From Dialister sp. CAG:486 (GTDB lineage Bacteria; Bacteroidota; Bacteroidia; Bacteroidales; Paludibacteraceae): 46,241 nt of DNA. This document shows, in pieces, positions 16,003 through 27,364 of this stretch. Below the pieces are notes generated by a model. The model was not told the DNA's origin and searched no databases. It saw nothing but the letters and a program-made list of their open reading frames with translations. The position numbers and the translations under genes are program-made. The DNA is taken from contig CAVHGD010000009.1 of assembly GCA_963635385.1 (NCBI GenBank), positions 1-46,241 on the forward strand, written 5' to 3'. Numbering within the stretch: the stretch's first letter is position 1; every line of letters begins with the position of its first letter.

Positions 16003-16053
16003 TGCTTTATTCTGCTTTGGGTCTGTATTTATTTTGCTTTATTCTGCTTTGGG
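16003..16053. repeat. Direct 19-bp repeat TGCTTTATTCTGCTTTGGG (x2) between the SprT-like gene and clpS
   Basis: Copies lie at 16003-16021 and 16035-16053. The second copy supplies the last codons (PKAE*) of the SprT-like gene on the minus strand. Confidence 0.7.
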
Positions 16054-16713
16054 GCGGATGACGGTACCTGTATTCTCTAATTCGAGGGCGCCTGTAAGGT
16101 AGTGGTAGAGCTTGTTGGCGGGGAGAGAAATAAACGCCGGCTCGACCCGTACGGGGAATCGCTCAAATATAGCCCGATTGCTCGCATACCACCGAACCGA
16201 TTGCACACCCGGCAGCTGCTTAGTGCACTCCCAATAGGCAAATAACTTGTTTCGAATCACCAACGCAACCGCACACGTTCCGTCCTCCTTCTCCAACACG
16301 CATATATAGCGCCACCCATTGCTCTCACGCATAATGGCGGACTCTTCATCGTCCGAGAAATAGACCGATATTCGGATTCCATACCGCTCGGTAATCTCTT
16401 TCATCTTCGCCAAGAAAACCCGTCCGTGCGGGGAGGTATCTTGGATATGGTTATACCCGATGTAGTAGTGAATCATCTCATGGACTATGGTATCGATATA
16501 CTCCTCCTCGGGCAAATCCATTCGATTGGAAATCTCTATGCGAAAGTGCTCGGAGACGGTGCCGTCCTGTTCTTGTTGGCGAAACGTGCAGGTACGGCCT
16601 AACGAGCTATACCGTGCGTTGATGGCTAATTCGGGGCGTGGTAATACCCCCTCAAAACAAAGCCGATTGTAGTAATCAAACTTCTCGATCACATAGTCTA
16701 ATGTCGCTCTCAT
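16039..16713 (-). CDS. SprT-like zinc metalloprotease domain protein (HExxH)
   Basis: 224 aa. The N-terminus FDYYNRLCFEGVLPRPELAINARYSSLGRT and VHEMIHYYI (HExxH) are typical of SprT-like/Wss1-like domains. The C-terminal ~100 aa is unassigned. Its ATGA start overlaps the stop of the upstream gene. Confidence 0.75.
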   Translation of the reverse strand: MRATLDYVIEKFDYYNRLCFEGVLPRPELAINARYSSLGRTCTFRQQEQDGTVSEHFRIEISNRMDLPEEEYIDTIVHEMIHYYIGYNHIQDTSPHGRVFLAKMKEITERYGIRISVYFSDDEESAIMRESNGWRYICVLEKEDGTCAVALVIRNKLFAYWECTKQLPGVQSVRWYASNRAIFERFPVRVEPAFISLPANKLYHYLTGALELENTGTVIRPKAE

Positions 16714-18815
16714 TCCGTGAATTCTCCCTGCTCGTCGATATAATACACATTCAGCGCTTTCAGCCTATCTATTGCCAACTCATCTCCTTTGGCTGCCGCC
16801 TTACGATACCAAAATATCGCTTTCTCTTGGTCGGCTTCCACGCCCATCCCTTGTTCGTACATCCAACCCAACCTATATTGCCCCACCTTATTGCCCTTTT
16901 CGGCGGCTCGGGTATGGAGCCGCACGGCTTCGGCCTCGTTTTTCTCAATCAACTCCCCTTTGCAATAGCAGTAGGCTAACTGCAGCATGGCGTCTTCATC
17001 CTCTTTTTCGATGGCCAATTCATACCAATGTTTCATTTCATCACCGCTTTTCGGCACCCCATCTCCGTATCGATAGCACCTTGCTATGTTACGCATAGCC
17101 GCAGCATACCCCTTATCCGCTGCCCGCCGATACCATTCGAGTGCCTTATCGTAATCCTGCTCACAACCGTTTCCGTCATGATAATAATTTGCCACATTAT
17201 TCATGGCGACAATACCTCCCAAATCGGCTGCTTTCAGGTACCATTCAAACGCTTTTTCATAATCCGCATCATCGCCGACTTGTCCTCTATCATACATACA
17301 TCCCAAATTATTCATAGCGGCATCGTTTCCCTCTTCCGCCAATTCCGAGTAGAGGCGAAAAGCTTTTTGATAGTCTGGTTCCACAGCCCCATTACCATCC
17401 GCATAGATATAAGCCACCTCAAATCGCACTTCCTTACTTCCGTTCGCCAACGCCATATCCCCCCATCGCACGGCTTCTTTATAGTCTTTCTGCCCGAACC
17501 AGCCATTGTAATAGGCCTTAACCAATCGCTCTTGTGCCGACACACAGCCCCTCTGCGCACTCTCGACATAACAAACACGCGCAAAGGTCGGGTTCTTCAC
17601 AAATCCATTCCAACCAAACAGAAAATCATCCCCATAGTCCTTTTGCCTTGCAGGCGTTTCATCACGGATATAGGCTCGGAGGTCGTCTTCGGTATCGATT
17701 GCCTTGGCGGCAATGGCTTGCATCCGAGCGAAACGAGATGCGCTCTGTGGCACCCCATATTTGCCCTCCTTATACGCCTCCGCCAACACCTTCGCATAGT
17801 TGGCATTCCCCGCTTGCGCCAATCGAGCCATCCACGGCAGAGCCAATACGGCTTGACGCTCGCCCCCTTCGCGATACAGCTCCACAATCCGCTCGCAGCT
17901 TTCTTGGTCGGCAAACTCGGACACACACTCCTTATACGCAGCTATCGCCTTCGCCTTGTCTTCGGCACACCCTACCCCATGTCGGTAGTCGTGCGCCACC
18001 TGCCGCATAGCAGGCAAATAGTGTTGCCGAGCCGCCTTTACCTCCCACTGGTGCGCCAATCGGTCACTCTTGGGGGCATGCGTCCCTTCACGGAACAGGG
18101 CCGCTATCTGCTGTTGGGCAATGGGGCAGATATGTTTCGCACCATATTGGCGGCTCAGCCCGCACTCCGTGCAGCCGTTTTGGGCTTCTTGCACCATTCG
18201 GCTATAGGCCTCCGTGTTGCATAGAGTAGTTTGATACCCCTGCAAGGCCTTCTGCCGCTCGCGACAATAGTCGGTCGGCGCAACCGGTGTGGCGGTAGGC
18301 AATTCAAAATCGAGGAGCGAGTCTTGCAGCCGTACCGACACCCCGAACAGGGAGTCATCCGCCCACACCGCTGCGCAATAGACCACACGACTTGCCGTCA
18401 CGAAATCGTTCCACGTCTTGGAGTGCATAAAGTCGTCCTCACCGTAGCCTGTCTCGGTGGTCAGATGCACTATCAATGCGCCCTCATGCACCAAAGGCCT
18501 GTCACCCCGCACATTCTTCCAATCCTGATAGATCGGCACGATGCGGGCCGTCTTGAAAAGCCGTTTCTCCATGGCGGTTGCCCGCTCCATATCCGCGCGG
18601 CGCTGACCATACAGGAATAGGGTCGTCACCAACTCCGTTGAACACCCCAAGTCTTTGAGCACCCGCGCAAACGCCTTGCTCCCCCGCAGACGCCCACGGT
18701 CCGCCCCCTCGCAGCGGTACTCCACAAGCGTGATAGACGGCACAACGGCTATCAGCCGACGCAGCTCGTCATTGTCCATCAGGGCTCTATATAAGGTATC
18801 GATATTAGCGGTCAT
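16710..18815 (-). CDS. 701-aa protein: unknown N-terminal domain (~265 aa) plus a long Sel1-like (SLR/TPR-like) repeat array
   Basis: From about residue 270 onward there are many repeats of the Sel1 pattern (A..WY.KAA..G...A...LG..Y..G.GV..D...A..W). I recognised no family for residues 1-265 and saw no TM segment or signal peptide. It overlaps the MotB-like gene by 11 nt. Confidence 0.75.
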   Translation of the reverse strand: MTANIDTLYRALMDNDELRRLIAVVPSITLVEYRCEGADRGRLRGSKAFARVLKDLGCSTELVTTLFLYGQRRADMERATAMEKRLFKTARIVPIYQDWKNVRGDRPLVHEGALIVHLTTETGYGEDDFMHSKTWNDFVTASRVVYCAAVWADDSLFGVSVRLQDSLLDFELPTATPVAPTDYCRERQKALQGYQTTLCNTEAYSRMVQEAQNGCTECGLSRQYGAKHICPIAQQQIAALFREGTHAPKSDRLAHQWEVKAARQHYLPAMRQVAHDYRHGVGCAEDKAKAIAAYKECVSEFADQESCERIVELYREGGERQAVLALPWMARLAQAGNANYAKVLAEAYKEGKYGVPQSASRFARMQAIAAKAIDTEDDLRAYIRDETPARQKDYGDDFLFGWNGFVKNPTFARVCYVESAQRGCVSAQERLVKAYYNGWFGQKDYKEAVRWGDMALANGSKEVRFEVAYIYADGNGAVEPDYQKAFRLYSELAEEGNDAAMNNLGCMYDRGQVGDDADYEKAFEWYLKAADLGGIVAMNNVANYYHDGNGCEQDYDKALEWYRRAADKGYAAAMRNIARCYRYGDGVPKSGDEMKHWYELAIEKEDEDAMLQLAYCYCKGELIEKNEAEAVRLHTRAAEKGNKVGQYRLGWMYEQGMGVEADQEKAIFWYRKAAAKGDELAIDRLKALNVYYIDEQGEFTE

Positions 18816-19512
18816 GGCGTATCAAATTTTCCAACACACGGTAGTCGTCGGTGATCAACTTTATCTCTACGCGGCGGGACTTGGCGCAATCGATTTGGCG
18901 CATATCCTCCACGAAACGGCCCTCCCCGTCGAGCGCTCGGCTGTAGGAATAGCCGTTAGCCGTCAGCCAAAAATCCACCTGCTTTCGGTCCGCCTCGGGC
19001 AATGCGGTGTATTCCGGCATGGTGCGAATATAGGCAATCACACTGCGGGCACGGTTCTGGGACAGCTTCAAGTTGGCCATATACGGATCGGGATCGAGCG
19101 CCGGGAATGGAATGGTATCGGTATGGCCCTCGATACGAATCTCCTTGATACTACCCCGCAGAGAATCCGCCAACAAGATATGCAGATAGGCCGGAATGAC
19201 CGACGAAAGCATAGCGGCAAACTCCGGCTTGATATGCCAATCGCCCCGACCGAACAGACTCTCCGCCCGCGTGAACCGCATCGTGAGGTCGCTGCCGATG
19301 GCCATCGTGCCCTCGCCTATCTCCTGCCGGAACTCCGTTTCTAACTTGTCGTGCAGCTGCTGCTTGGTATCGACATAGTCCGACAGGCGTACCTCCTTTT
19401 CCCGATTGAGCTGCATGGCCCGATGCATATACGCCACCGACACAAACAGGAAAATGACCATCAGCCCCGTCATGAGGTCCGACACCGACATCCATACATT
19501 CGTTTTTGCCAT
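18805..19512 (-). CDS. MotB-like / OmpA-family protein (N-terminal TM with conserved Asp, C-terminal peptidoglycan-binding OmpA domain)
   Basis: The ORF track starts at 19548. I prefer the ATG at 19512 (MAKTNVWMSVSDLMTGLMVIFLFV...), 7 nt after the upstream stop. It has the OmpA motif IRIEGHTDT...NLKLSQNRARSV...GYSYSRAL...SRRVEIKL. Confidence 0.8.
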   Translation of the reverse strand: MAKTNVWMSVSDLMTGLMVIFLFVSVAYMHRAMQLNREKEVRLSDYVDTKQQLHDKLETEFRQEIGEGTMAIGSDLTMRFTRAESLFGRGDWHIKPEFAAMLSSVIPAYLHILLADSLRGSIKEIRIEGHTDTIPFPALDPDPYMANLKLSQNRARSVIAYIRTMPEYTALPEADRKQVDFWLTANGYSYSRALDGEGRFVEDMRQIDCAKSRRVEIKLITDDYRVLENLIRHDR

Positions 19513-19519
19513 AGCCGTA

Positions 19520-20254
19520 CTATTTAGCGTTTTGCACAATAGCGTCAAGCTTCTCGGCCATCGACTTCACCTGCTCCGACAACTCGGACAGCGTATTCTC
19601 GATGGCGGCCGCCGACTCCGCCGTCGTCAGCCGGACTACCCCCTGACGGTCGTGCTGACCCGCCATCATATTCAGCGTCGTTGTCAATTCCTCCAGCCGG
19701 ACATTGATTTGCTCGATATCATCGCTTGCCTGACGGACGCTCGCCACCAAAGTGTCGATATTCAGGTCGGTCTTATCGGCCGAATCGGCGGATTGGAGCT
19801 GCTTGAGCTCATCGGTATGGAGCTGCTTTAGCTCGGCGGTACGAAGCTCCACCTCATGGCGCAGATTCTCTATGGCCGACACCACTCGGAGGACCATCTC
19901 GGAACGTTCCATCTCCCATTTCGCCTTTTTATCCAACTTGTCAAACCTACGATTCACCACGTGGCTCAAAATCAACGAGCCAATCATACCACAGATGGAG
20001 GTAAAAAAGGCGGTCTGCAAGCCCGAAAGCAACTCGGGGATACTGGCATCGATATCCGACACGTTGAAATTCGCCAAACCGACCGTGATACCAATGAAAG
20101 TGCCCAACACGCCCAAAGTCGAGACCAAGGCGGGGAACTGCTCAATCCATTGCCTGTTGGCCTGTATTTCACTATCTTCTTTCATGAAAAGGTACGCACG
20201 AGCCGTCAAAAACGCACCTACAATAAACATACAAAGCAGAATCGTTAATAGCAT
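19520..20254 (-). CDS. MotA/TolQ/ExbB-family proton-channel protein with a ~140-aa C-terminal coiled-coil tail
   Basis: 244 aa. It has three hydrophobic segments and the family signatures STLGVLGTFIGITVGL and GLQTAFFTSICGMIGSLIL. Residues ~105-244 are heptad-like and charged (ELRTAELKQLHTDELKQLQS...). Confidence 0.75.
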   Translation of the reverse strand: MLLTILLCMFIVGAFLTARAYLFMKEDSEIQANRQWIEQFPALVSTLGVLGTFIGITVGLANFNVSDIDASIPELLSGLQTAFFTSICGMIGSLILSHVVNRRFDKLDKKAKWEMERSEMVLRVVSAIENLRHEVELRTAELKQLHTDELKQLQSADSADKTDLNIDTLVASVRQASDDIEQINVRLEELTTTLNMMAGQHDRQGVVRLTTAESAAAIENTLSELSEQVKSMAEKLDAIVQNAK

Positions 20255-20687: not shown

Positions 20688-22883
20688 CTATTTTATTTCC
20701 ATACCGGTTGCGGTATAGGTCTTGTCACCGTTTTTGATGAGGATTTGACCGTTGCGCAGAATCTTATAGGCGTGAGACACCTGTTCCGTTTCCGTATTTT
20801 CAATGGCCGTTTCCGTCTCAATGAAGTTGGAGAACAAACACCATCCTTTTGCCGATTGGTAAGCGGACTTCGTACCACGCGGAATGTATATCGGAGTATC
20901 TAGATGTACACCTATAACAAAATAATATTGCCAGGAAACAGCACCTTCTAATACCGGTGGCGTTTCAGTTAAAATAGTCAGAGATTTAATTTTGGAACAC
21001 TTATAAAACGCCATATCTCCAATAGTTGTTACACTATGAGGGATAGTGATAGACCCTGTTGCAGCACTACTACATGCCAATAGTGTCGACCGTGTTGCAT
21101 CCTTATAGACTAAATAACCATCCACATACCCATTCATGCTTCTTGCATCCCATGGGGCATCTACTGAATCCGTTCCATTGTAAACAATATTTGGAACATA
21201 TTCAAAAGCAGAGTATCCAATAGTCTTTACACTATTTGGAATAGTGATTGTGGTAAGAGCGGTGCAATCTGCAAAGGCTAGATCTCCTATACTTGTTACA
21301 CTGTTTGGAATAGTGATAGACCCTGTTGCGGCACTACTGCATGCCAATAGTGTCGACCGTGTTGCATCTTTATAAACAAAATAGCCATCCACATACCCAT
21401 TTCTGCTTTTTTCATACCATTCTCCATATACAGAATCCGATCCGCTGTAAATGATATTTGGAACATTTTGAAAGGCCGCATCTCCAATAGTCTTTACACT
21501 ATTTGGGATTGTGAGGGAAATAAGAGCAGTACAATAAAAGAAAGCGCCGCCTCCAATGTCTGTTACACTATTTGGGATTGTTAGGCTCGTTAAAGCGCTA
21601 CACTCCGAAAATGCACCGTCTCCAATGCTTGTTACACCATTTGGGATGGTTGTTGATTTGCAACCTTTTACTAATGTATTCGTAGCTGTTTCTATAATGG
21701 CATTACAGTTATTACGGCTATCATACTTCGGATTTCCTTCTTCTACCACAATCGAAGAAAGATTATTACTGAAATACAAAACACAAGAGCCATAATCATC
21801 TACAATACTTGTTAGACTTTTGGGAATAGTAATAGAAGTCCAATCAATGTAGTCACAGAAAGCACCAGATTCTATACTTTGTACGCCATCCGGAATAAAT
21901 GTAGATTTGCAACCAAGTATTAATTTGTTCGTGGCAGTTTCTATGATAGCATTACATTTATCACGGCTATCATATTTCGGATTCCCTTTTTCAACCACAA
22001 TCGAAGAAAGACTACTACAGCCCCCAAAAGCATAATCCCCAATACTTGTTACACTGCTTGGGATGGTGATAGAATGCAGACCGACGCAATTGGTAAAAGC
22101 ACAATCTTCTATACTCGTTACACCCTCCGGAATAGTTGAATTTCTGCAACCTTGTACTAATTTATTCGTAGCTGTTTCTATGATGGCATTACAATTATCA
22201 CGACTATCATAATTCGGATTGCCTTCTTCTACCACAATCGAAGAAAGACTGATACAATCATCAAAAGGATATTGTGACTCATAAAATACATATTCATCAT
22301 CTACTGCGTTCCCAATACTTGTTACACTATTTGGGATGGTGACAGAGGTAAGAGCTGTGCATTCAGCAAAGGCGTTATTTCCTATACTTGTTACACTGTT
22401 AGGTATAGTGACAGAGGTAAGAGCTGTGCATTCAGCAAAGGCTCTATTTCCTATAGTCCGGACACCTTCCATATTGATAGAGGTAAGATTAGCACAGTCT
22501 GCAAAAGTTGATTTTTCAATGCTCGCAACACTATTAGGAATGGTAATTGAGGAGATACCAGACCCGTAAAATGCGTGATCTCCAATACTCGTTACGCTAT
22601 TGGGAATAGTAATAGAAATAAGTTCACTACAGTCCCCAAATGCATACTTGCGTATTCGCGTAACGCTATAGGATATCCCATTATATGTCACAGTGGATGG
22701 AATAGTAACCGTTGTGTAATGATAATGAGAAAAAGCATCTTCTATCGTATCTGACAATTCTACCGTATAGGGTGCAACACTACTTGTAATTTTATAAAAC
22801 AAGCCATCGTACTTAAAATCATACGCAAAAATGGCGGTGGTGGTAAATAATGCCACCAATAATGATAGGAATTTTGTTTTCAT
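20688..22883 (-). CDS. BspA-type leucine-rich repeat (LRR_5-like) surface protein with signal peptide
   Basis: The ORF track starts at 22913. I prefer the ATG at 22883 (MKTKFLSLLVALFTTTAIFA). It has about 23-aa repeats of the form IPNSVTSIGxxAFxxCxxLTSxT throughout, plus larger repeated modules (SSIVVEEGNP.YDSR.NCNAIIETATN.L..GC three times). Confidence 0.85.
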   Translation of the reverse strand: MKTKFLSLLVALFTTTAIFAYDFKYDGLFYKITSSVAPYTVELSDTIEDAFSHYHYTTVTIPSTVTYNGISYSVTRIRKYAFGDCSELISITIPNSVTSIGDHAFYGSGISSITIPNSVASIEKSTFADCANLTSINMEGVRTIGNRAFAECTALTSVTIPNSVTSIGNNAFAECTALTSVTIPNSVTSIGNAVDDEYVFYESQYPFDDCISLSSIVVEEGNPNYDSRDNCNAIIETATNKLVQGCRNSTIPEGVTSIEDCAFTNCVGLHSITIPSSVTSIGDYAFGGCSSLSSIVVEKGNPKYDSRDKCNAIIETATNKLILGCKSTFIPDGVQSIESGAFCDYIDWTSITIPKSLTSIVDDYGSCVLYFSNNLSSIVVEEGNPKYDSRNNCNAIIETATNTLVKGCKSTTIPNGVTSIGDGAFSECSALTSLTIPNSVTDIGGGAFFYCTALISLTIPNSVKTIGDAAFQNVPNIIYSGSDSVYGEWYEKSRNGYVDGYFVYKDATRSTLLACSSAATGSITIPNSVTSIGDLAFADCTALTTITIPNSVKTIGYSAFEYVPNIVYNGTDSVDAPWDARSMNGYVDGYLVYKDATRSTLLACSSAATGSITIPHSVTTIGDMAFYKCSKIKSLTILTETPPVLEGAVSWQYYFVIGVHLDTPIYIPRGTKSAYQSAKGWCLFSNFIETETAIENTETEQVSHAYKILRNGQILIKNGDKTYTATGMEIK
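22319..22456. repeat. Near-perfect 69-bp tandem duplication inside the LRR gene
   Basis: GACAGAGGTAAGAGCTGTGCATTCAGCAAAGGC occurs at 22341-22373 and 22410-22442 (period 69 nt, one 23-aa LRR unit). Confidence 0.8.
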
Positions 22884-22964
22884 TGTTCTTACTTTTTGAT
22901 AGAACCCACCCATCGATGGAAGTAAAATACGAACTTAACAGCATCAATGGATAAGCCATTATTG

Positions 22965-23017
22965 AAAAAATTGGATGGGGGGACTATCTAACACTCATAT
23001 ATTGTTAAGCAGTCCCC
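22965..23017 (-). terminator. Possible terminator after the HEPN-motif gene
   Basis: GGGGACT (22979-22985) pairs with AGTCCCC (23011-23017) around a loop of about 25 nt that has an inner TAACA/TGTTA stem. On the minus strand a U-run (plus-strand A6 at 22965-22970) lies 8 nt downstream. Confidence 0.35.
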
Positions 23018-23031
23018 TATTCCCTAATAAT

Positions 23032-23421
23032 TCATTTTTTACGACTATTCTCCAAAACAGCCACAAATTTCCAGAATATATTCAGAGATATCGACATCTC
23101 TAACGTATTTGTTCCTTTTTGGGAGTAATCCTTCAAAATGATATTTCCGTTCTCTTCTTTAACATGTCCATGTGCCATAGCATTTCGGATATGTCTTAGC
23201 AAATCATACACCTTATCTTTACTATATTGAAACTTACAATATTGCGATACATTATGCGAACCATTGTATTGGTAGAACAAACATTGAATGCCGTGTTCTT
23301 TGATAAACGATTGCAGACACTCATCATCCCAATTGTATTCATCATAATGTCCTTTTATCTCATTGGCAAATCGGACAATAAAGTCGTATCTCCTTGCTTT
23401 TTCTACTTTGGTGAGTTCCAT
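23032..23421 (-). CDS. Small (129 aa) protein with an RNxxxH HEPN-type motif (putative RNase/toxin)
   Basis: LLRHIRNAMAHGHV: R79-N-A-M-A-H84 is encoded at 23170-23187 (checked by hand: cga aat gct atg gca cat). The size and predicted helical character fit minimal HEPN domains. This is motif-level evidence only. Confidence 0.55.
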   Translation of the reverse strand: MELTKVEKARRYDFIVRFANEIKGHYDEYNWDDECLQSFIKEHGIQCLFYQYNGSHNVSQYCKFQYSKDKVYDLLRHIRNAMAHGHVKEENGNIILKDYSQKGTNTLEMSISLNIFWKFVAVLENSRKK

Positions 23422-23438
23422 TTCAAAATTTCTAATTT

Positions 23439-23663
23439 TTAGTTATTTGCAAGAGTCGGGTGAAATGGGTCAACGAATGTAACATCCTCGGGAGATACCC
23501 GATATACCTTATGAGTACCATTTTCTACAACAATGGCACAAGACTCATTGGCGATTGTATCACCGACATTGTTCATTATAGGCATTAGTCCCCATTCCTC
23601 AAACACACCTGTTTTCTCTTGCAACTGGTCGCCAATCTTAATTAAAAAATTTACGTTTCTCAT
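23439..23663 (-). CDS. Hypothetical 74-aa protein, upstream partner of the HEPN-motif gene
   Basis: The ORF ends 17 nt before the 129-aa gene on the same strand. I recognised no family. Confidence 0.45.
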   Translation of the reverse strand: MRNVNFLIKIGDQLQEKTGVFEEWGLMPIMNNVGDTIANESCAIVVENGTHKVYRVSPEDVTFVDPFHPTLANN

Positions 23664-23736: not shown

Positions 23737-24516
23737 TTAGTTTAATTTGTCATAAACAAGACGTACGGAATAATATTTATATTTACCACTGCTAGAAACA
23801 TACAAATCATCATATCCATCAAAATAAAGAATATAAGCTCCATCATCGTCGTATTGTGTAGCAGACCAATAGTACAAACTAGCTTTGAGGTCGTTTGAAG
23901 ATGCAGGCAGGAATATAGCGCCTGCATTTTGCATACTTTCCCATTCCGATATGGTATAGACATTTGTCTTATAGCCATCGCCATAACCACTATCAAAAGT
24001 AAGCCCCTTAGGTGATTCGAAGTTATCCGGCAAAATAATAAGACCTTGCACATTATTCACTTTGGCAAGCCCCCACAATGCCTGTGAATTAAGACGGCCA
24101 CTTATTAAATAGGACCACTCATCGCTTTTCAATGTGCGCCATGAGTGATATGATCCGTCTATCGAATTAACGCCCCAATCGGTAAAAGAGCTCTTATACT
24201 CATAATAGCCGGCAATAAACATCGGGTCGCGACCTGTTCCCCATGCAAACAGATCTATCCAACCGTTGCCCCCGACATTATCATTAGCACTACGATTATA
24301 CACATCATATTGATGTTCTGCAAAGCGCCATGTTCCGGAACCTGGGGAGTACTGCAGATTTCCTTTTGAGAAAATAACCTTCTTGTTATCACCCACAGAA
24401 AAGTAGTGAACACTTGCCGATGGATCATCATCGGTGTCTAATCCGTTCTTGTCTTTGTTGCACGCTACAAAAGACATTGCAACAATACACAGTAACATAC
24501 TCATTAGTTTTTTCAT
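23737..24516 (-). CDS. Lipoprotein with a DUF1566/FISUMP-like C-terminal domain
   Basis: The ORF track starts at 24546. I prefer the ATG at 24516 (MKKLMSMLLCIVAMSFVAC, lipobox-like). WRTLKSDEWSYL...GAIFLPASS...YYWSAT...YYSVRLVYD resembles the WR.P...E...L...A.FLPA.G.R...YWS...SVR.V pattern of that fold. Confidence 0.65.
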   Translation of the reverse strand: MKKLMSMLLCIVAMSFVACNKDKNGLDTDDDPSASVHYFSVGDNKKVIFSKGNLQYSPGSGTWRFAEHQYDVYNRSANDNVGGNGWIDLFAWGTGRDPMFIAGYYEYKSSFTDWGVNSIDGSYHSWRTLKSDEWSYLISGRLNSQALWGLAKVNNVQGLIILPDNFESPKGLTFDSGYGDGYKTNVYTISEWESMQNAGAIFLPASSNDLKASLYYWSATQYDDDGAYILYFDGYDDLYVSSSGKYKYYSVRLVYDKLN

Positions 24517-24932
24517 AAAGATTTCCCTAATTCGTGTCGGGCGCAACTGTTAAGCGGTGGGCAGACGCATTGATTAAATAGGATTTTTGAAGGTATTTTG
24601 CCCATGATACCGTCATTCGATTTAGCGTTAGACACACAAAAAAAGCGCAGACCTCGTATTGTTTCATCGCAATCAGAGGCCTTCGCAATACCCTACACTT
24701 CGATAAACAATAGGAAACCTACGCTAATATGACGGCACACTATGCTTAGATACAACCAAGCATAGCATGACTAAACGTCATACCCATAGGCATCTATTGC
24801 TACTTTGCAGTTGAAGTGTATCGAAAGTTGCGAAGTTTCTGATTACAAGCCACAAAGCGTCAATAAACGCTATTCAATATGTCCAATCCACCCTGCAACG
24901 AGGACATACCCCCTTCAGCGTAGATTCGGCCA

Positions 24933-24964
24933 CAAAGATACTACTTTTGACGGAACTATGCAAA
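24933..24964 (-). promoter_or_regulatory. Canonical minus-strand promoter (TTTG-N20-TATCTTTG) about 410 nt upstream of the lipoprotein ATG
   Basis: Plus-strand CAAAGATA at 24933-24940 and CAAA at 24961-24964. Confidence 0.45.
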
Positions 24965-25204
24965 TACAAAGGGGGTATTTGATGGAGAGAAAAGAGAATA
25001 AGGATGTACAGAAATAGAATTGCTAGTCGTTGGGGATTTGTGTTTTTTTGGGGGCGTATGGAGATGTTTTTGGGTGGCTTTAGGGGAGGTCGTTGAGGAG
25101 AATTAGGATTGGCGTTGATGTGGCTATGGGAGAATTTTGGAGTGGATGCGGGGTGGGTTCAAAGTAGCTTCGAGGTGGCTAAAAAGTATTCAGAAAGTAT
25201 TCGT

Positions 25205-25240
25205 ATGCTTCGGTTATGCTTCGGTTATGTTTCGGTTATC
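25205..25240. repeat. Three tandem copies of an 11-12 bp unit (ATGCTTCGGTT)
   Basis: ATGCTTCGGTTATGCTTCGGTTATGTTTCGGTTATC, read directly. Confidence 0.8.
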
Positions 25241-25509
25241 CTATACGCAGGTCTCGGAAAAGACAGGGAGAGAAAGTGTGGAGATTTTCGTGAGGGTGAG
25301 GGGTGAGAGTTGAGGGGTGATAGCAGTTGTTCGGAATGGTTGAGTGCTTAGTGTTTAGAGTTTATCACAGTTTTTGGGAGAGATTGAGTGTTTAGTGTTG
25401 AGAGTTTAGCGCAGTGGAGAGGGGATAGTTTGGAGCGGGTTGGCGGGGAATGGAGAAGGGGCAGGAAAAGGAGCGGGAGGGGTTTCTTGCGGGGTTTTAT
25501 CGCTCACGG

Positions 25510-25541
25510 CTTGCATACGTAGCGAAAAAGTAGTAACTTTG
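25510..25541 (+). promoter_or_regulatory. Candidate promoter for fumarate hydratase (CTTG-N20-TAACTTTG)
   Basis: TAACTTTG at 25534-25541 and CTTG at 25510-13. The site is about 185 nt upstream of the ATG at 25724. Confidence 0.4.
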
Positions 25542-25685
25542 CAGCCGTTCTGTGCAATGTGGCGAACAAGCGATTGAGCAATGGGGGATGTAGAATGGTA
25601 TGCTGTTTGATGTATGAAGGAGAGGAGATAGCAACAGAAAGGCATGGAAATGGGTAATTGTTCATTGGTAATTGCCACAGGACAG

Positions 25686-25718
25686 GCATGTTAATTGTTA
25701 ATTCTTAATTGTTAATTG
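25686..25718 (-). repeat. AATTAACA-word repeat, inverted copy (contains a perfect 18-mer core)
   Basis: GCATGTTAATTGTTAATT at 25686-25703 is the reverse complement of AATTAACAATTAACATGC. It is followed by CTTAATTGTTAATTG. Confidence 0.85.
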
Positions 25719-25723
25719 AAGAT

Positions 25724-27364
25724 ATGGAATTCAAGTATGCGCCGATGTTTCAACTCGGCAAAGACGAGACAGAGTATTACCTGCTGACCAAAGACTTCGT
25801 GTCAGTGGGCGAGTTCGAAGGAAAACCCATCCTGAAAATAGAAAAGGAAGGTCTGACACGCATGGCACAACAAGCCTTCCACGACGTGAGCTTCATGCTG
25901 CGCCGCTCACACAACGAGCAAGTGGCCAAGATACTGCGCGACCCCGAGGCAAGCGCCAACGACAAGTATGTGGCACTCACCTTCTTGCGCAACGCCGAGG
26001 TGGCCTGCAAAGGGCAGTTGCCCCTCTGCCAAGATACCGGTACCGCCATTGTGCATGGCGAGAAAGGGCAGCAAGTATGGACCGGCTACTCGGACGAAGA
26101 GGCGCTGAGCCACGGCGTATACAACACCTACACGCAAGACAACTTGCGCTACTCACAGAACGCGCCGCTCTCGATGTACGAGGAGGTGAACACCAAGTGC
26201 AACCTGCCCGCACAGATAGACATTGAGGCCACCGAAGGCATGGAGTACCGTTTCCTGTGCGTGACCAAAGGCGGCGGCTCTGCCAACAAGACCTATCTCT
26301 ACCAAGAGACCAAGGCCCGCATACAGAACCCCGGCACCCTCATTCCGTTCCTTGTGGAGAAGATGAAGAGCCTCGGTACTGCGGCTTGCCCACCCTACCA
26401 TATCGCCTTTGTGATTGGCGGCACGAGCGCTGAGAAGAACCTGCTCACCGTCAAGTTGGCCTCGACCCACTACTACGACAACCTGCCGACCACGGGCGAC
26501 GAGACCGGGCGTGCCTTCCGCGATATAGAGCTCGAGAAACAGCTGCTGCAAGAGGCCTACAAGATAGGCTTGGGCGCTCAGTTCGGCGGCAAATATATGG
26601 CACACGACGTTCGCGTGGTGCGTCTGCCCCGACACGGCGCAAGCTGCCCCATCGGATTGGGCGTAAGCTGCTCCGCCGACCGTAACATCAAGTGCAAGAT
26701 AAACAAAGACGGTATCTGGATTGAGCGCATGGACAACAACCCGGGCAGTCTGATTCCCGCCGAGCTTCGACAAGCAGGCGAAGGCGATGCCGTGCGCATC
26801 GACCTCAACCAACCCATGCGGGATGTATGCAATATACTGACGCAATACCCGATTGGCACACGCCTCTCGCTGAACGGCACCATCATTGTGGGGCGCGACA
26901 TTGCGCACGCAAAGATTAAGGCCCGCCTCGACGCCGGCGAGCCGATGCCCGAATACCTGAAGAATCACCCTATCTACTATGCAGGCCCCGCCAAGACCCC
27001 TGCCGGCATGGCGTGCGGCTCGATGGGACCGACGACCGCCGGCCGTATGGACCCGTATGTAGATGAGTTCCAAGACCACGGAGGCTCGCTCATCATGCTG
27101 GCAAAGGGCAACCGCTCGATAGACGTGACCAATGCCTGCCAAAAGCACGGCGGATTCTACCTCGGCTCGATTGGCGGTCCTGCGGCCATCTTGGCACAAG
27201 AGAACATCAAGTCGATTGAGTGCGTGGAATACCCCGAGCTCGGCATGGAGGCAATATGGAAAATTGAGGTGGAGAACTTCCCCGCATTCATATTGGTGGA
27301 TGACAAGGGCAACGACTTCTTCAAACAACTGAAGCCTTGCACTGGATGCTCCATACTCAATTAA
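25724..27364 (+). CDS. Class I (Fe-S, FumA/FumB-type) fumarate hydratase
   Basis: The ORF track starts at a TTG at 25709, inside the repeat. I prefer the ATG at 25724 ([14 protein letters not shown]...). Motifs: [36 protein letters not shown], and a C-terminal beta-subunit-like domain. Confidence 0.92.

What the first reader, a model, noticed from the sequence alone, without database searches (positions are those of the whole stretch)
23032..23663. Two-gene module: 74-aa protein plus 129-aa RNxxxH (HEPN-type) protein, a possible toxin-antitoxin or abortive-infection pair
The 129-aa ORF contains LLRHIRNAMAHGHV, where R79-N-x-x-x-H84 is the catalytic signature of HEPN RNases (Rx4-6H, often RNxxxH). 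It is preceded by a 74-aa ORF on the same strand with 17 nt between the two genes. A small upstream gene followed by a downstream toxin is the classic TA layout. The 74-aa protein shows no minimal-nucleotidyltransferase (MNT) motifs, so if this is a TA pair the antitoxin would be of a different type. Its location in a low-GC island fits an accessory defence or addiction function.
Basis: partly seen in the sequence, partly recalled or inferred. Interest (0 to 1): 0.6.

Follow-up and report, generated by a model that had tools for sequence, protein, structure and literature searches.

The report
HEPN RNase pair in surface-protein operon
A gut Bacteroidales genome carries a likely HEPN-type RNase gene preceded by a rare, phage-related small protein gene. 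The two sit at the end of a mobile surface-lipoprotein operon beside a Zorya defence locus, so a defence or addiction role is plausible, but the small protein is not always needed alongside the RNase.

Summary
**Observation.** Both ORFs are real. They lie on the minus strand, 17 nt apart, and are under purifying selection.

**HEPN call.**
- The 129-aa protein just passes Pfam's cutoff for HEPN family PF18736.
- R79, N80 and H84 are invariant in 14 homologues down to 16% identity.
- The motif sits at the end of the third helix of the model, as in HEPN.
- No solved structure matches it. Comparison with core PF18736 members matches only around the motif. I put HEPN at about 0.8.

**The 74-aa protein.** It is an acidic SH3-like β-barrel from a very rare family. 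Its structural and distant sequence relatives are small phage proteins.

**Is it a toxin-antitoxin pair?**
- The pair is adjacent in 8 lineages sharing 41-67% identity.
- A sister genome has two intact HEPN copies and no small gene.
- Two lineages carry an FRG gene (defence candidate PDC-S15) in place of the HEPN.
- Distant relatives of the small protein sit next to lipoprotein genes, or in phages, without a HEPN.
- A toxin-antitoxin or abortive-infection reading is plausible (about 0.4) but not shown.

**Context.** The pair is the last part of one unit: promoter, structured ~300-nt leader RNA, lipoprotein gene, small gene, HEPN gene, terminator. The unit lies in a low-GC island next to ZorA/ZorB-like genes.

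**Earlier scan notes.** First readers noted look-alike leaders in eight other genomes. The HEPN pair itself was noted only on this window.

Interest is moderate. The leader RNA family is the more novel by-product.

The parts
23032..23421 (-). 129-aa HEPN-like protein, a predicted metal-independent RNase. The catalytic motif R79-N80-x3-H84 is encoded at 23187-23170.
   Evidence: ORF. PF18736 scores 27.4 bits against a 26.6 cutoff, Ribonuc_2-5A scores 22 bits, and PADLOC CARF_HEPN has E 5e-4. H77, R79, N80, A83, H84 and D98 are invariant in 14 homologues. The AF2 model has pLDDT 80, with the motif at the end of helix 70-83. dN/dS is 0.13-0.31.
23439..23663 (-). 74-aa acidic protein (pI 4.7) with an SH3-like beta-barrel fold. 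It is the candidate partner of the HEPN protein and belongs to a rare family related to small phage proteins.
   Evidence: ORF. No hit in Pfam, NCBIfam, PADLOC or PHROGs. AF2 pLDDT is 87 and the model is all-beta. The best PDB match has E 0.09, to generic Tudor/KOW/WYL barrels. The best BFVD hits are phage proteins of 66-76 aa with TM 0.67-0.71. Only 5 clusters were found among 1.84 billion representative proteins. dN/dS is 0.08-0.25.
23422..23438 (-). 17-nt spacer between the small gene and the HEPN gene. It holds no promoter motif.
   Evidence: Spacers in homologous pairs range from -23 to +20 nt.
23737..24516 (-). Surface lipoprotein gene and first gene of the unit. The likely start is the ATG at 24516 (MKKLMSMLLCIVAMSFVAC...). 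The mechanical ORF list starts it at the TTG at 24546.
   Evidence: It shares 50-64% identity with the genes upstream of the pair in L001, L003, L007 and L008. It has a weak Lcl_C hit.
24933..24964 (-). Bacteroidetes-type promoter, with -33 TTTG elements and the -7 box TATCTTTG at 24940-24933. It is the only such intergenic motif on this strand in the island.
   Evidence: The motif aligns in all copies of the leader.
24633..24929 (-). Structured leader RNA of about 300 nt. It ends in a hairpin plus U-run that looks like an attenuator. It is a multi-copy family found upstream of accessory surface-protein and defence cassettes.
   Evidence: Alignment. RNAalifold gives 57 pairs, 12 of them with compensatory changes. 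A long-range helix covaries: each copy's own arms pair at -12.7 kcal/mol, against -6.1 for arms swapped between copies. No Rfam match.
22965..23017 (-). Terminator-like hairpin plus U-run just after the HEPN stop codon. It marks the end of the transcription unit.
   Evidence: dG is -22.7 kcal/mol and z is -2.2. Intrinsic terminators also follow the HEPN gene in L133/L134 and in L114, L118, L022, L023 and L031.
20688..22913 (-). 741-aa BspA-type LRR surface protein. It lies downstream on the same strand within the same low-GC island.
   Evidence: LRR_5 hit with E 9e-117. BspA-type genes also follow distant HEPN homologues in L024, L025 and L029.
18805..20254 (-). ZorB-like (18805-19548) and ZorA-like (19520-20254) genes that abut the island. 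They give the region a defence context.
   Evidence: PADLOC ZorA2 at E 1e-41 and ZorB2 at E 2e-67.

Best explanation
The 129-aa protein is a minimal HEPN-type RNase from a divergent clade at the fringe of Pfam PF18736. Together with the 74-aa acidic SH3-like protein it forms a two-gene cargo module.

The module occupies the 3' end of a horizontally mobile operon. That operon runs: Bacteroidetes promoter, structured leader RNA, surface lipoprotein gene, small gene, HEPN gene, terminator.

The most likely mechanism is toxin-antitoxin-like or abortive-infection-like:
- The HEPN protein dimerises, and R79, N80 and H84 form a metal-independent RNase site.
- The small protein is made from the same transcript and binds and restrains the RNase.
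- Phage infection, or loss of the cassette, releases RNA cleavage and stops growth.
- Distant phage homologues of the small protein could be mimics that neutralise such RNases.

Shown here: gene structure, family signal, conservation, co-location, mobility and defence neighbourhood. Inferred: RNase activity, toxicity, binding between the two proteins, and the trigger.
For: **HEPN call.**
- PF18736 scores above its gathering cutoff, and every secondary hit is another HEPN family.
- R79, N80 and H84 are invariant across 14 homologues.
- The motif sits at the end of helix 3, with an insert between helices 2 and 3, as PMC3710099 describes for HEPN.

**Pairing.**
- The two genes are adjacent and co-directional, with spacers of -23 to +20 nt, in 8 lineages sharing 41-67% identity. 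These are the window, L001, L003, L007, L133/L134, L022, L114 and L118.
- The pair stays together while the upstream surface-protein gene changes type.
- Both genes are under purifying selection.
- The small protein is consistently acidic, with pI 4.3-4.8.

**Defence context.**
- In two lineages the HEPN is swapped for an FRG protein that matches PADLOC PDC-S15 over its full length (E 2e-67). This is what is expected of one partner serving alternative effectors.
- ZorA2/ZorB2-like genes abut the island.
- The island is low in GC and is not syntenic in 12 same-genus genomes.
- The module is rare. The HEPN was found in 3 of 83 same-genus genomes (the window's own and 2 of 82 others).
- The small protein's relatives lie in phage early regions.
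Against: - G392, a same-genus genome that is 94% complete, has two HEPN genes with an intact RHIRNAIAHG motif directly after a surface-protein gene. It has no small-protein homologue anywhere. The positive controls did hit.
- The DNA comparison shows a clean replacement. The small gene is gone, while the HEPN and its flank stay 82-83% identical.
- More distant HEPN homologues have unrelated neighbours or none.
- Distant small-protein relatives sit next to lipoprotein genes or in phages, without a HEPN.
- The pair has no promoter motif of its own.
- Foldseek found no HEPN match or any other fold match for the model, with TM 0.2-0.3.
- hhalign to two core PF18736 members gives only 18-54% probability over 20-44 columns.
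- No PADLOC system model matches.
- No expression or toxicity data could be obtained.
Confidence: 0.4

Rival explanations
1. The HEPN protein is a stand-alone conflict or defence RNase. It may be self-limited, or controlled at the level of the leader RNA. The 74-aa protein is functionally independent of it. It could be a phage-derived accessory gene tied to the lipoprotein gene, for example part of a moron-like surface or exclusion module. On this view the adjacency reflects shared descent of the cassette.
For: - G392 keeps two intact HEPN copies without the small gene.
- The small gene stays with the lipoprotein gene when the HEPN is replaced by an FRG gene.
- In G177 and G332, and in P0022 contexts, relatives of the small protein are followed by lipoprotein genes and no HEPN.
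- Single-gene HEPN defences are known, for example HEC-08, where the H of Rx4-6H is required (bioRxiv 10.1101/2024.01.29.577857).
Against: - The pair persists as neighbours, with spacers of 1-20 nt or an overlap, while the upstream surface-protein gene changes architecture.
- The small protein is cytoplasmic and acidic, with no signal peptide.
Confidence: 0.3
2. The HEPN-like protein is not a toxin. It is a cis-acting regulatory or processing RNase for accessory surface-protein operons, acting for example on the structured leader or on the polycistronic mRNA.
For: - Members of the HEPN clade consistently sit inside or just upstream of genes for surface proteins: lipoprotein, DUF4988-collagen and BspA-LRR types.
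- The operon carries a conserved structured leader with an attenuator-like terminator.
- HEPN without the small protein is tolerated.
Against: - Most leader-controlled surface-protein cassettes have no HEPN.
- The HEPN is rare. It was found in 3 of 83 same-genus genomes (the window's own and 2 of 82 others).
- It is interchangeable with defence candidates rather than with regulators.
Confidence: 0.15
3. The protein is not a functional HEPN RNase. The RNxxAH segment is then a conserved motif in an unrelated alpha/beta fold with another role, such as ligand or protein binding.
For: - There is no structural neighbour in the PDB, and the top hits are roadblock- or GAF-like folds at TM about 0.3.
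- The model has a four-stranded sheet that is not part of the canonical four-helix HEPN core.
- The Pfam score is only 0.8 bits over the cutoff and covers profile positions 71-140 of 152.
- hhalign to core members is weak.
- There is no PDB sequence hit.
Against: - Four independent HEPN models (PF18736, PF06479, PF18735 and PADLOC CARF_HEPN) all hit the same motif region, and nothing else does.
- R, N and H are strictly invariant.
- The motif's position at the end of helix 3 matches the published HEPN topology, and beta-hairpin inserts are known in Csx1 HEPN.
- Core PF18736 members show the same order of elements: RNxIAH, then a hairpin, then a terminal helix.
Confidence: 0.15

Closest known systems
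pEK499_p136-like HEPN family (Pfam PF18736; Anantharaman et al. 2013, PMC3710099)
   Same: The R-N-x-x-A-H motif is followed by a beta-hairpin segment and a terminal helix. The family is predicted to be metal-independent RNases, it is scattered in mobile and defence contexts, and no member has been tested experimentally.
   Different: The core members found here are about 184 aa. They match this clade only around the motif, with hhalign probability 18-54%. The published neighbourhoods are R-M, ART/Macro, NamA and Pgl operons, not surface-lipoprotein operons or an SH3-like partner.
HepT-MntA (HEPN-MNT) type VII toxin-antitoxin systems
   Same: It has a minimal HEPN toxin of about 130 aa with an Rx4-6H motif, in a tightly linked two-gene arrangement with the partner gene upstream (general knowledge; abstract of PMC11586414).
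   Different: The partner here is not a nucleotidyltransferase. It has no MNT profile hit and an all-beta SH3-like fold, so neutralisation by AMPylation is excluded.
RnlA-RnlB / LsoA-LsoB with the phage T4 inhibitor Dmd
   Same: A HEPN RNase toxin acts in anti-phage defence and is restrained by a small protein that binds it directly. Phages encode small proteins that take over that role. This is the same logic I infer for the phage homologues of the 74-aa protein (own knowledge; RnlA abstract of PMC8266594).
   Different: RnlA is a large multi-domain protein and its antitoxin gene lies downstream. There is no sequence or fold relationship to the proteins here, and binding has not been shown here.
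Single-gene HEPN defences (AbiV-type; HEC-08 of Payne et al., bioRxiv 10.1101/2024.01.29.577857)
   Same: A HEPN RNase serves as the sole effector, and its activity depends on the H of Rx4-6H. This fits the HEPN genes in G392 that lack a partner.
   Different: HEC-08 is DUF3644 plus zinc-ribbon domains. It belongs to a different family and has a different architecture.
PADLOC phage defence candidate PDC-S15 (FRG-domain protein)
   Same: In L008 and in L135/L136 it occupies the same slot after the small gene that the HEPN gene occupies here.
   Different: It is an unrelated 307-aa protein with an FRG domain. It is itself only a prediction made by guilt-by-embedding.

Membership tests
HEPN superfamily | Conserved Rx4-6H motif with a polar residue (N, D or H) right after the R | tested here: met
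   R79-N80-A-M-A-H84. R, N and H are invariant in 14 homologues sharing 16-66% identity. The definition is from PMC3710099.
HEPN superfamily | Four-helix up-down core, with an insert between helices 2 and 3 and the motif at the end of helix 3 | tested here: inconclusive
   The AF2 model (pLDDT 80) has H5-24, H34-42, an insert, H70-83 carrying the motif at its C-terminal end, a beta-hairpin insert, and H113-124. This agrees with the description. However, Foldseek against the PDB gave no HEPN match or any other significant match.
HEPN superfamily | Profile similarity to established HEPN families | tested here: met
   PF18736 has E 3e-6, PF06479 E 2e-4 and PADLOC CARF_HEPN E 5e-4. Thirteen of 14 clade members hit PF18736, 4 hit PF06479 and 2 hit PF18735. 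No non-HEPN family recurs.
HEPN superfamily | Metal-independent RNase activity that depends on the R and the H | not testable with these tools
   This needs biochemistry.
Pfam PF18736 (pEK499_p136) | Score at or above the gathering cutoff, with alignment across the domain | tested here: inconclusive
   The score is 27.4 bits against a cutoff of 26.6, but it covers only profile positions 71-140 of 152. hhalign to two strong members (84 and 69 bits) gives 18% and 54% probability over 20-44 columns. I therefore treat this as a fringe or sister clade.
Type II-like toxin-antitoxin pair | Adjacent, co-directional, tightly spaced small genes | tested here: met
   The spacer is 17 nt here and -23 to +20 nt in 7 other lineages.
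Type II-like toxin-antitoxin pair | Obligate co-occurrence of toxin and antitoxin | tested here: not met
   G392 has two intact HEPN genes and no small-protein homologue, with working positive controls. The small protein occurs without a HEPN in at least 6 contexts.
Type II-like toxin-antitoxin pair | Own autoregulated promoter and an antitoxin with a DNA-binding domain | tested here: not met
   There is no TAnnTTTG motif in the 73-nt spacer upstream of the small gene. The only intergenic promoter motif is at 24940-24933, ahead of the leader. The small protein has no HTH, RHH or AbrB profile hit. The promoter test is a simple motif scan.
Type II-like toxin-antitoxin pair | Toxicity of the toxin and neutralisation by the partner | not testable with these tools
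   This needs expression experiments.
HepT-MntA type VII TA | The partner is a minimal nucleotidyltransferase (MNT) | tested here: not met
   There is no NTP-transferase hit in Pfam, NCBIfam or PADLOC, and the fold is an all-beta SH3-like barrel.
Known anti-phage systems in PADLOC v2 | A match to a system model | tested here: not met
   The HEPN protein has only a weak CARF_HEPN motif hit (E 5e-4), and the small protein has no hit.

The most novel reading that the evidence does not exclude
The locus may belong to a class of leader-RNA-gated 'outside-in' cassettes in gut Bacteroidales. Each cassette would couple a variable surface lipoprotein with an intracellular conflict effector.

On this reading, the rare phage-derived SH3-like protein is an exchangeable adaptor or inhibitor. 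It serves alternative effectors, either the HEPN RNase or the FRG/PDC-S15 protein. Its phage homologues would act as counter-defence mimics.

The structured ~300-nt leader, which is not in Rfam, would set when the whole cassette is expressed.
Probability: 0.15. Interest if true: 0.7.

Novelty: new variant of a known kind. Interest (0 to 1): 0.45.

Why it matters
- If the small beta-barrel protein restrains the HEPN RNase, it defines a new antitoxin or regulator family for HEPN toxins. Phage-borne relatives would hint at an anti-defence role.
- It would also add a defence or addiction module from uncultured gut Bacteroidales, where few such systems have been tested.
- The consistent placement of HEPN, FRG (PDC-S15) and DUF2971 (PDC-S31) genes inside leader-controlled surface-protein operons suggests a link. 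Surface variation and intracellular defence may be co-regulated in these bacteria.
- The structured leader RNA family is not in Rfam, is multi-copy and shows covariation. It is a concrete and testable by-product.

Tried and rejected
- **Family scans.** Pfam, NCBIfam, PADLOC and PHROGs gave nothing for the 74-aa protein.
- **PDB sequence searches.** Clade profiles for both proteins gave only chance-level hits.
- **Foldseek, HEPN model against the PDB.** No significant match, with TM 0.2-0.3. The structural test of HEPN was therefore uninformative rather than negative.
- **Foldseek, small protein against the PDB.** Only generic SH3-like barrels, with E at least 0.09.
- **Pattern scan of named genomes for the small protein.** No confirmed relatives.
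- **Rfam scan of the island.** Only a chance U6atac hit.
- **Sigma-70 promoter scan.** Not informative for Bacteroidota. I replaced it with a TAnnTTTG search.
- **Downstream genes in the phage contexts (L113, L116).** I tested whether these 133-153-aa proteins are HEPN. They have no RNxxxH motif and no family hit.
- **Remnants of the HEPN gene in the FRG variants and in G358.** None found.
- **tRNA genes as integration sites.** None in the window.
- **Rejected reading: HepT-MntA.** There is no MNT partner.
- **Rejected reading: integron cassette or prophage.** The window has no integrase, though a XerD-like integrase flanks the FRG variant.

Full report
**1. Observation**

Both ORFs exist as described, but on the minus strand:
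- The 74-aa ORF is at 23439-23663.
- The 129-aa ORF is at 23032-23421.
- A 17-nt spacer separates them.

The motif R79-N80-A-M-A-H84 is encoded at 23187-23170. The region from 20 to 25 kb has 35-42% GC, against 50-58% in the flanks.

The motif on its own is weak evidence. RNxxxH appears in 2.1% of shuffles of this protein's composition, and the looser Rx4-6H appears in 57%.

Both genes are under purifying selection. On pairs that are not saturated, dN/dS is 0.08-0.25 for the small gene and 0.13-0.31 for the HEPN gene.

The host is an uncultured gut or rumen Bacteroidales bacterium. The assembly is 2.25 Mb and 95% complete. The nearest fumarase genes are in Hadza gut MAGs and in rumen MAGs labelled 'Paludibacteraceae'.

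**2. Is the 129-aa protein a HEPN?**

Evidence in favour:
- Pfam PF18736 (HEPN pEK499_p136) scores 27.4 bits against a 26.6 cutoff (E 3e-6).
- Weaker hits go to RNase 2-5A/KEN (22 bits) and to PADLOC CARF_HEPN (E 5e-4).
- I collected 14 homologues sharing 16-66% identity. Thirteen hit PF18736, 4 hit PF06479 and 2 hit the RiboL-PSP HEPN family. No non-HEPN family recurs.
- The invariant residues are H77, R79, N80, A83, H84 and D98.
- The AF2 model has pLDDT 80 and pTM 0.73. It shows helices at 5-24, 34-42, 70-83 and 113-124. There is a loop insert after helix 2, and a beta-hairpin insert between helices 3 and 4. The motif sits at the C-terminal end of the third helix.
- Anantharaman et al. place the Rx4-6H motif in that position and describe the same H2-H3 insert (PMC3710099).

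Evidence against, or neutral:
- Foldseek against the PDB found nothing significant, with TM 0.2-0.3.
- PDB sequence searches found nothing.
- Two strong PF18736 members from other Bacteroidota (84 and 69 bits) share the order RNxIAH, hairpin, terminal helix. They align to the clade profile with only 18% and 54% hhalign probability.

I conclude that this is a HEPN-superfamily protein with probability of about 0.8. It is a divergent sister or fringe clade of PF18736.

**3. The 74-aa protein**

- It has no hit in any of the four family libraries.
- AF2 gives a confident all-beta model, with pLDDT 87.
- PDB neighbours are generic SH3-like barrels: SAWADEE/Tudor, integrase C-terminal domain, KOW and WYL. 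The best E-value is 0.09.
- In BFVD the best matches are uncharacterised phage proteins of 66-76 aa, with TM 0.67-0.71 and E 9e-4 to 4e-3.
- An exhaustive HMM search of 1.84 billion representative proteins found only 5 clusters. A profile search of the indexed database found 28 clusters at 90% identity.
- The family is acidic, with pI 4.3-4.8.
- Conserved motifs are G-x-F-[HE]-x-W-G, A-I-V-E and Y-x-V-x-P-E-x-V-x-F.

**4. Co-occurrence**

The pair is adjacent, with the small gene first, in 8 lineages sharing 41-67% identity with the window's small protein:
- the window
- L001/L002
- L003-L006
- L007
- L133/L134 (in L133 the HEPN gene was simply not called)
- L022 (genome G362)
- L114/L115
- L118/L119

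In every one of these a surface-protein gene precedes the pair. That gene varies in type:
- a lectin-like lipoprotein of 259-368 aa
- a DUF4988-collagen-BspA-LRR protein
- a DUF4988-collagen-lectin protein

Exceptions:
- **(a) FRG instead of HEPN.** In L008-L013 and L135/L136 the small gene is followed by a hairpin and then a 307-aa FRG protein. That protein matches PADLOC PDC-S15 over its full length (E 2e-67). A XerD-like integrase gene lies beyond it.
- **(b) Neither gene.** G358 has the same lipoprotein gene at the same Lon-adjacent site as L001. An unrelated 179-aa gene follows it, with neither the small gene nor the HEPN gene.
- **(c) HEPN without the small gene.** G392 has two HEPN genes with an intact RHIRNAIAHG motif, each 35 nt after a collagen-like surface-protein gene. 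It has no small-protein homologue anywhere in the genome, and the positive controls G000 and G362 did hit. DNA comparison with L118 shows that homology resumes 10-15 nt before the HEPN start. It continues at 82-83% identity through the gene and its flank.
- **(d) Distant HEPN homologues.** Those sharing 16-32% identity have other small neighbours or none. BspA-type genes often lie downstream of them.
- **(e) Distant relatives of the small protein.** Those sharing 32-39% identity lie in phage early regions with RecT/YqaJ or VapE genes. Others, more distant still, lie next to small lipoprotein or membrane-protein genes. None has a HEPN beside it.

**5. Transcription unit and context**

- The only intergenic Bacteroidetes -7 motif on the minus strand of the island is TATCTTTG at 24940-24933.
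- A leader of about 300 nt follows it (24929-24633). The leader is conserved in at least 12 copies across the genus and in L114 and L118. It ends in GGCCTC...GAGG plus a T-run.
- RNAalifold predicts 57 pairs for the leader, 12 of them with compensatory changes.
- A long-range helix covaries. Each copy's own arms pair at -12.7 kcal/mol, against -6.1 for arms swapped between copies.
- The leader has no Rfam match.
- The genes behind other copies are almost always secreted proteins or lipoproteins. In one case the gene is a DUF2971 protein matching PDC-S31 (E 1e-26).
- An intrinsic terminator follows every HEPN gene I examined.

The unit is therefore: promoter, leader, lipoprotein gene, small gene, HEPN gene, terminator.

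The island is not syntenic in 12 same-genus genomes. It abuts genes matching ZorA2 (E 1e-41) and ZorB2 (E 2e-67). That agrees with an earlier follow-up note on this window.

**6. Interpretation**

The evidence supports a HEPN-type RNase carried as accessory, mobile cargo in a defence-rich neighbourhood.

For a toxin-antitoxin or abortive-infection pair with the small protein as the restraining partner:
- tight coupling between the two genes
- persistence of the pair across changing upstream genes
- the acidity of the small protein
- its exchange between two putative effectors
- its phage relatives, by analogy with the phage T4 inhibitor Dmd acting on RnlA

Against it:
- the G392 genes that lack a partner
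- the pair has no promoter of its own
- the wider family of the small protein associates with lipoprotein genes rather than with HEPN genes

My estimates are:

| Reading | Probability |
|---|---|
| Partnered toxin-antitoxin or abortive-infection module | 0.40 |
| Independent HEPN effector plus an unrelated small gene | 0.30 |
| Operon-specific regulatory RNase | 0.15 |
| Not a HEPN RNase | 0.15 |

**7. Novelty**

PF18736 HEPN proteins have been described computationally (PMC3710099), and I found no experimental test of one. Three things are not described in the libraries or papers I searched:
- the small partner family
- its pairing with a HEPN protein
- the placement of both at the 3' end of leader-controlled surface-lipoprotein operons

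I classify the finding as a new variant of a known kind, of moderate interest. The leader RNA family is the most novel by-product. First readers flagged look-alike leaders in eight other genomes.

Noticed in passing
window 24633-24964 (minus strand); copies in L126, L127, L140-L147, L114, L118: A structured leader RNA family of about 300 nt with its own Bacteroidetes promoter and a terminal hairpin plus U-run. There are at least 12 copies, with covarying helices and no Rfam match. It almost always sits upstream of accessory secreted-protein, lipoprotein or BspA operons, or of defence-candidate genes. It is probably an attenuator or regulatory leader.
   Followed up: partly
window 16039-20254 (minus strand): Genes matching ZorA2 (E 1e-41) and ZorB2 (E 2e-67) directly abut the island. 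An earlier follow-up note calls this a short-tailed Zorya variant. I verified only the ZorA and ZorB hits.
   Followed up: partly
L127 (G000 contig C113) 3213-4891: A second copy of the leader in the same genome precedes a 251-aa DUF2971 protein that matches PADLOC PDC-S31 (E 1e-26). A secreted surface-protein gene follows it.
   Followed up: partly
L008 1220-2143; L135 482-1405: A 307-aa FRG-domain protein matches PDC-S15 (E 2e-67) and replaces the HEPN gene after the small gene. It is flanked by a XerD-like tyrosine recombinase gene and two deoxynucleoside kinase genes. A perfect 12-bp hairpin separates the small gene from the FRG gene.
   Followed up: partly
window 25147-25271 and 25649-25728: Two short multi-copy elements, of about 100 nt and 40-70 nt. 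They occur on many contigs of this genome and of relatives. The second lies just upstream of the fumarate hydratase start. The plus strand at 25001-26000 has a GC skew of +0.39.
   Followed up: no
L118 3660-3760, L114, L022, L023, L031 (3' of the HEPN terminator): A conserved block of about 80 nt (…TTCAAGTGCTCCTTCGGCAAGGGTTCGGTATCC…) lies directly after the HEPN terminator in the DUF4988-collagen clade. Its function is unknown. It may be a repeat or a recombination anchor.
   Followed up: no
L126 (G358 contig C88) 2666-3205 (minus strand): A 179-aa protein with no family hit occupies the slot after the lipoprotein gene, at the same Lon-adjacent site where L001 carries the small-plus-HEPN pair.
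   Followed up: no
L024-L026 1895-2182; L029 1695-1922; L028 1900-2208: Distant HEPN homologues have different small neighbours: 95 aa and 75 aa downstream, and 102 aa upstream. None of these has a family hit. They could be alternative partners.
   Followed up: no
window 20688-22913 (minus strand): A 741-aa BspA-type LRR protein built of near-identical repeats. Its repeat units match many loci across same-genus genomes.
   Followed up: no
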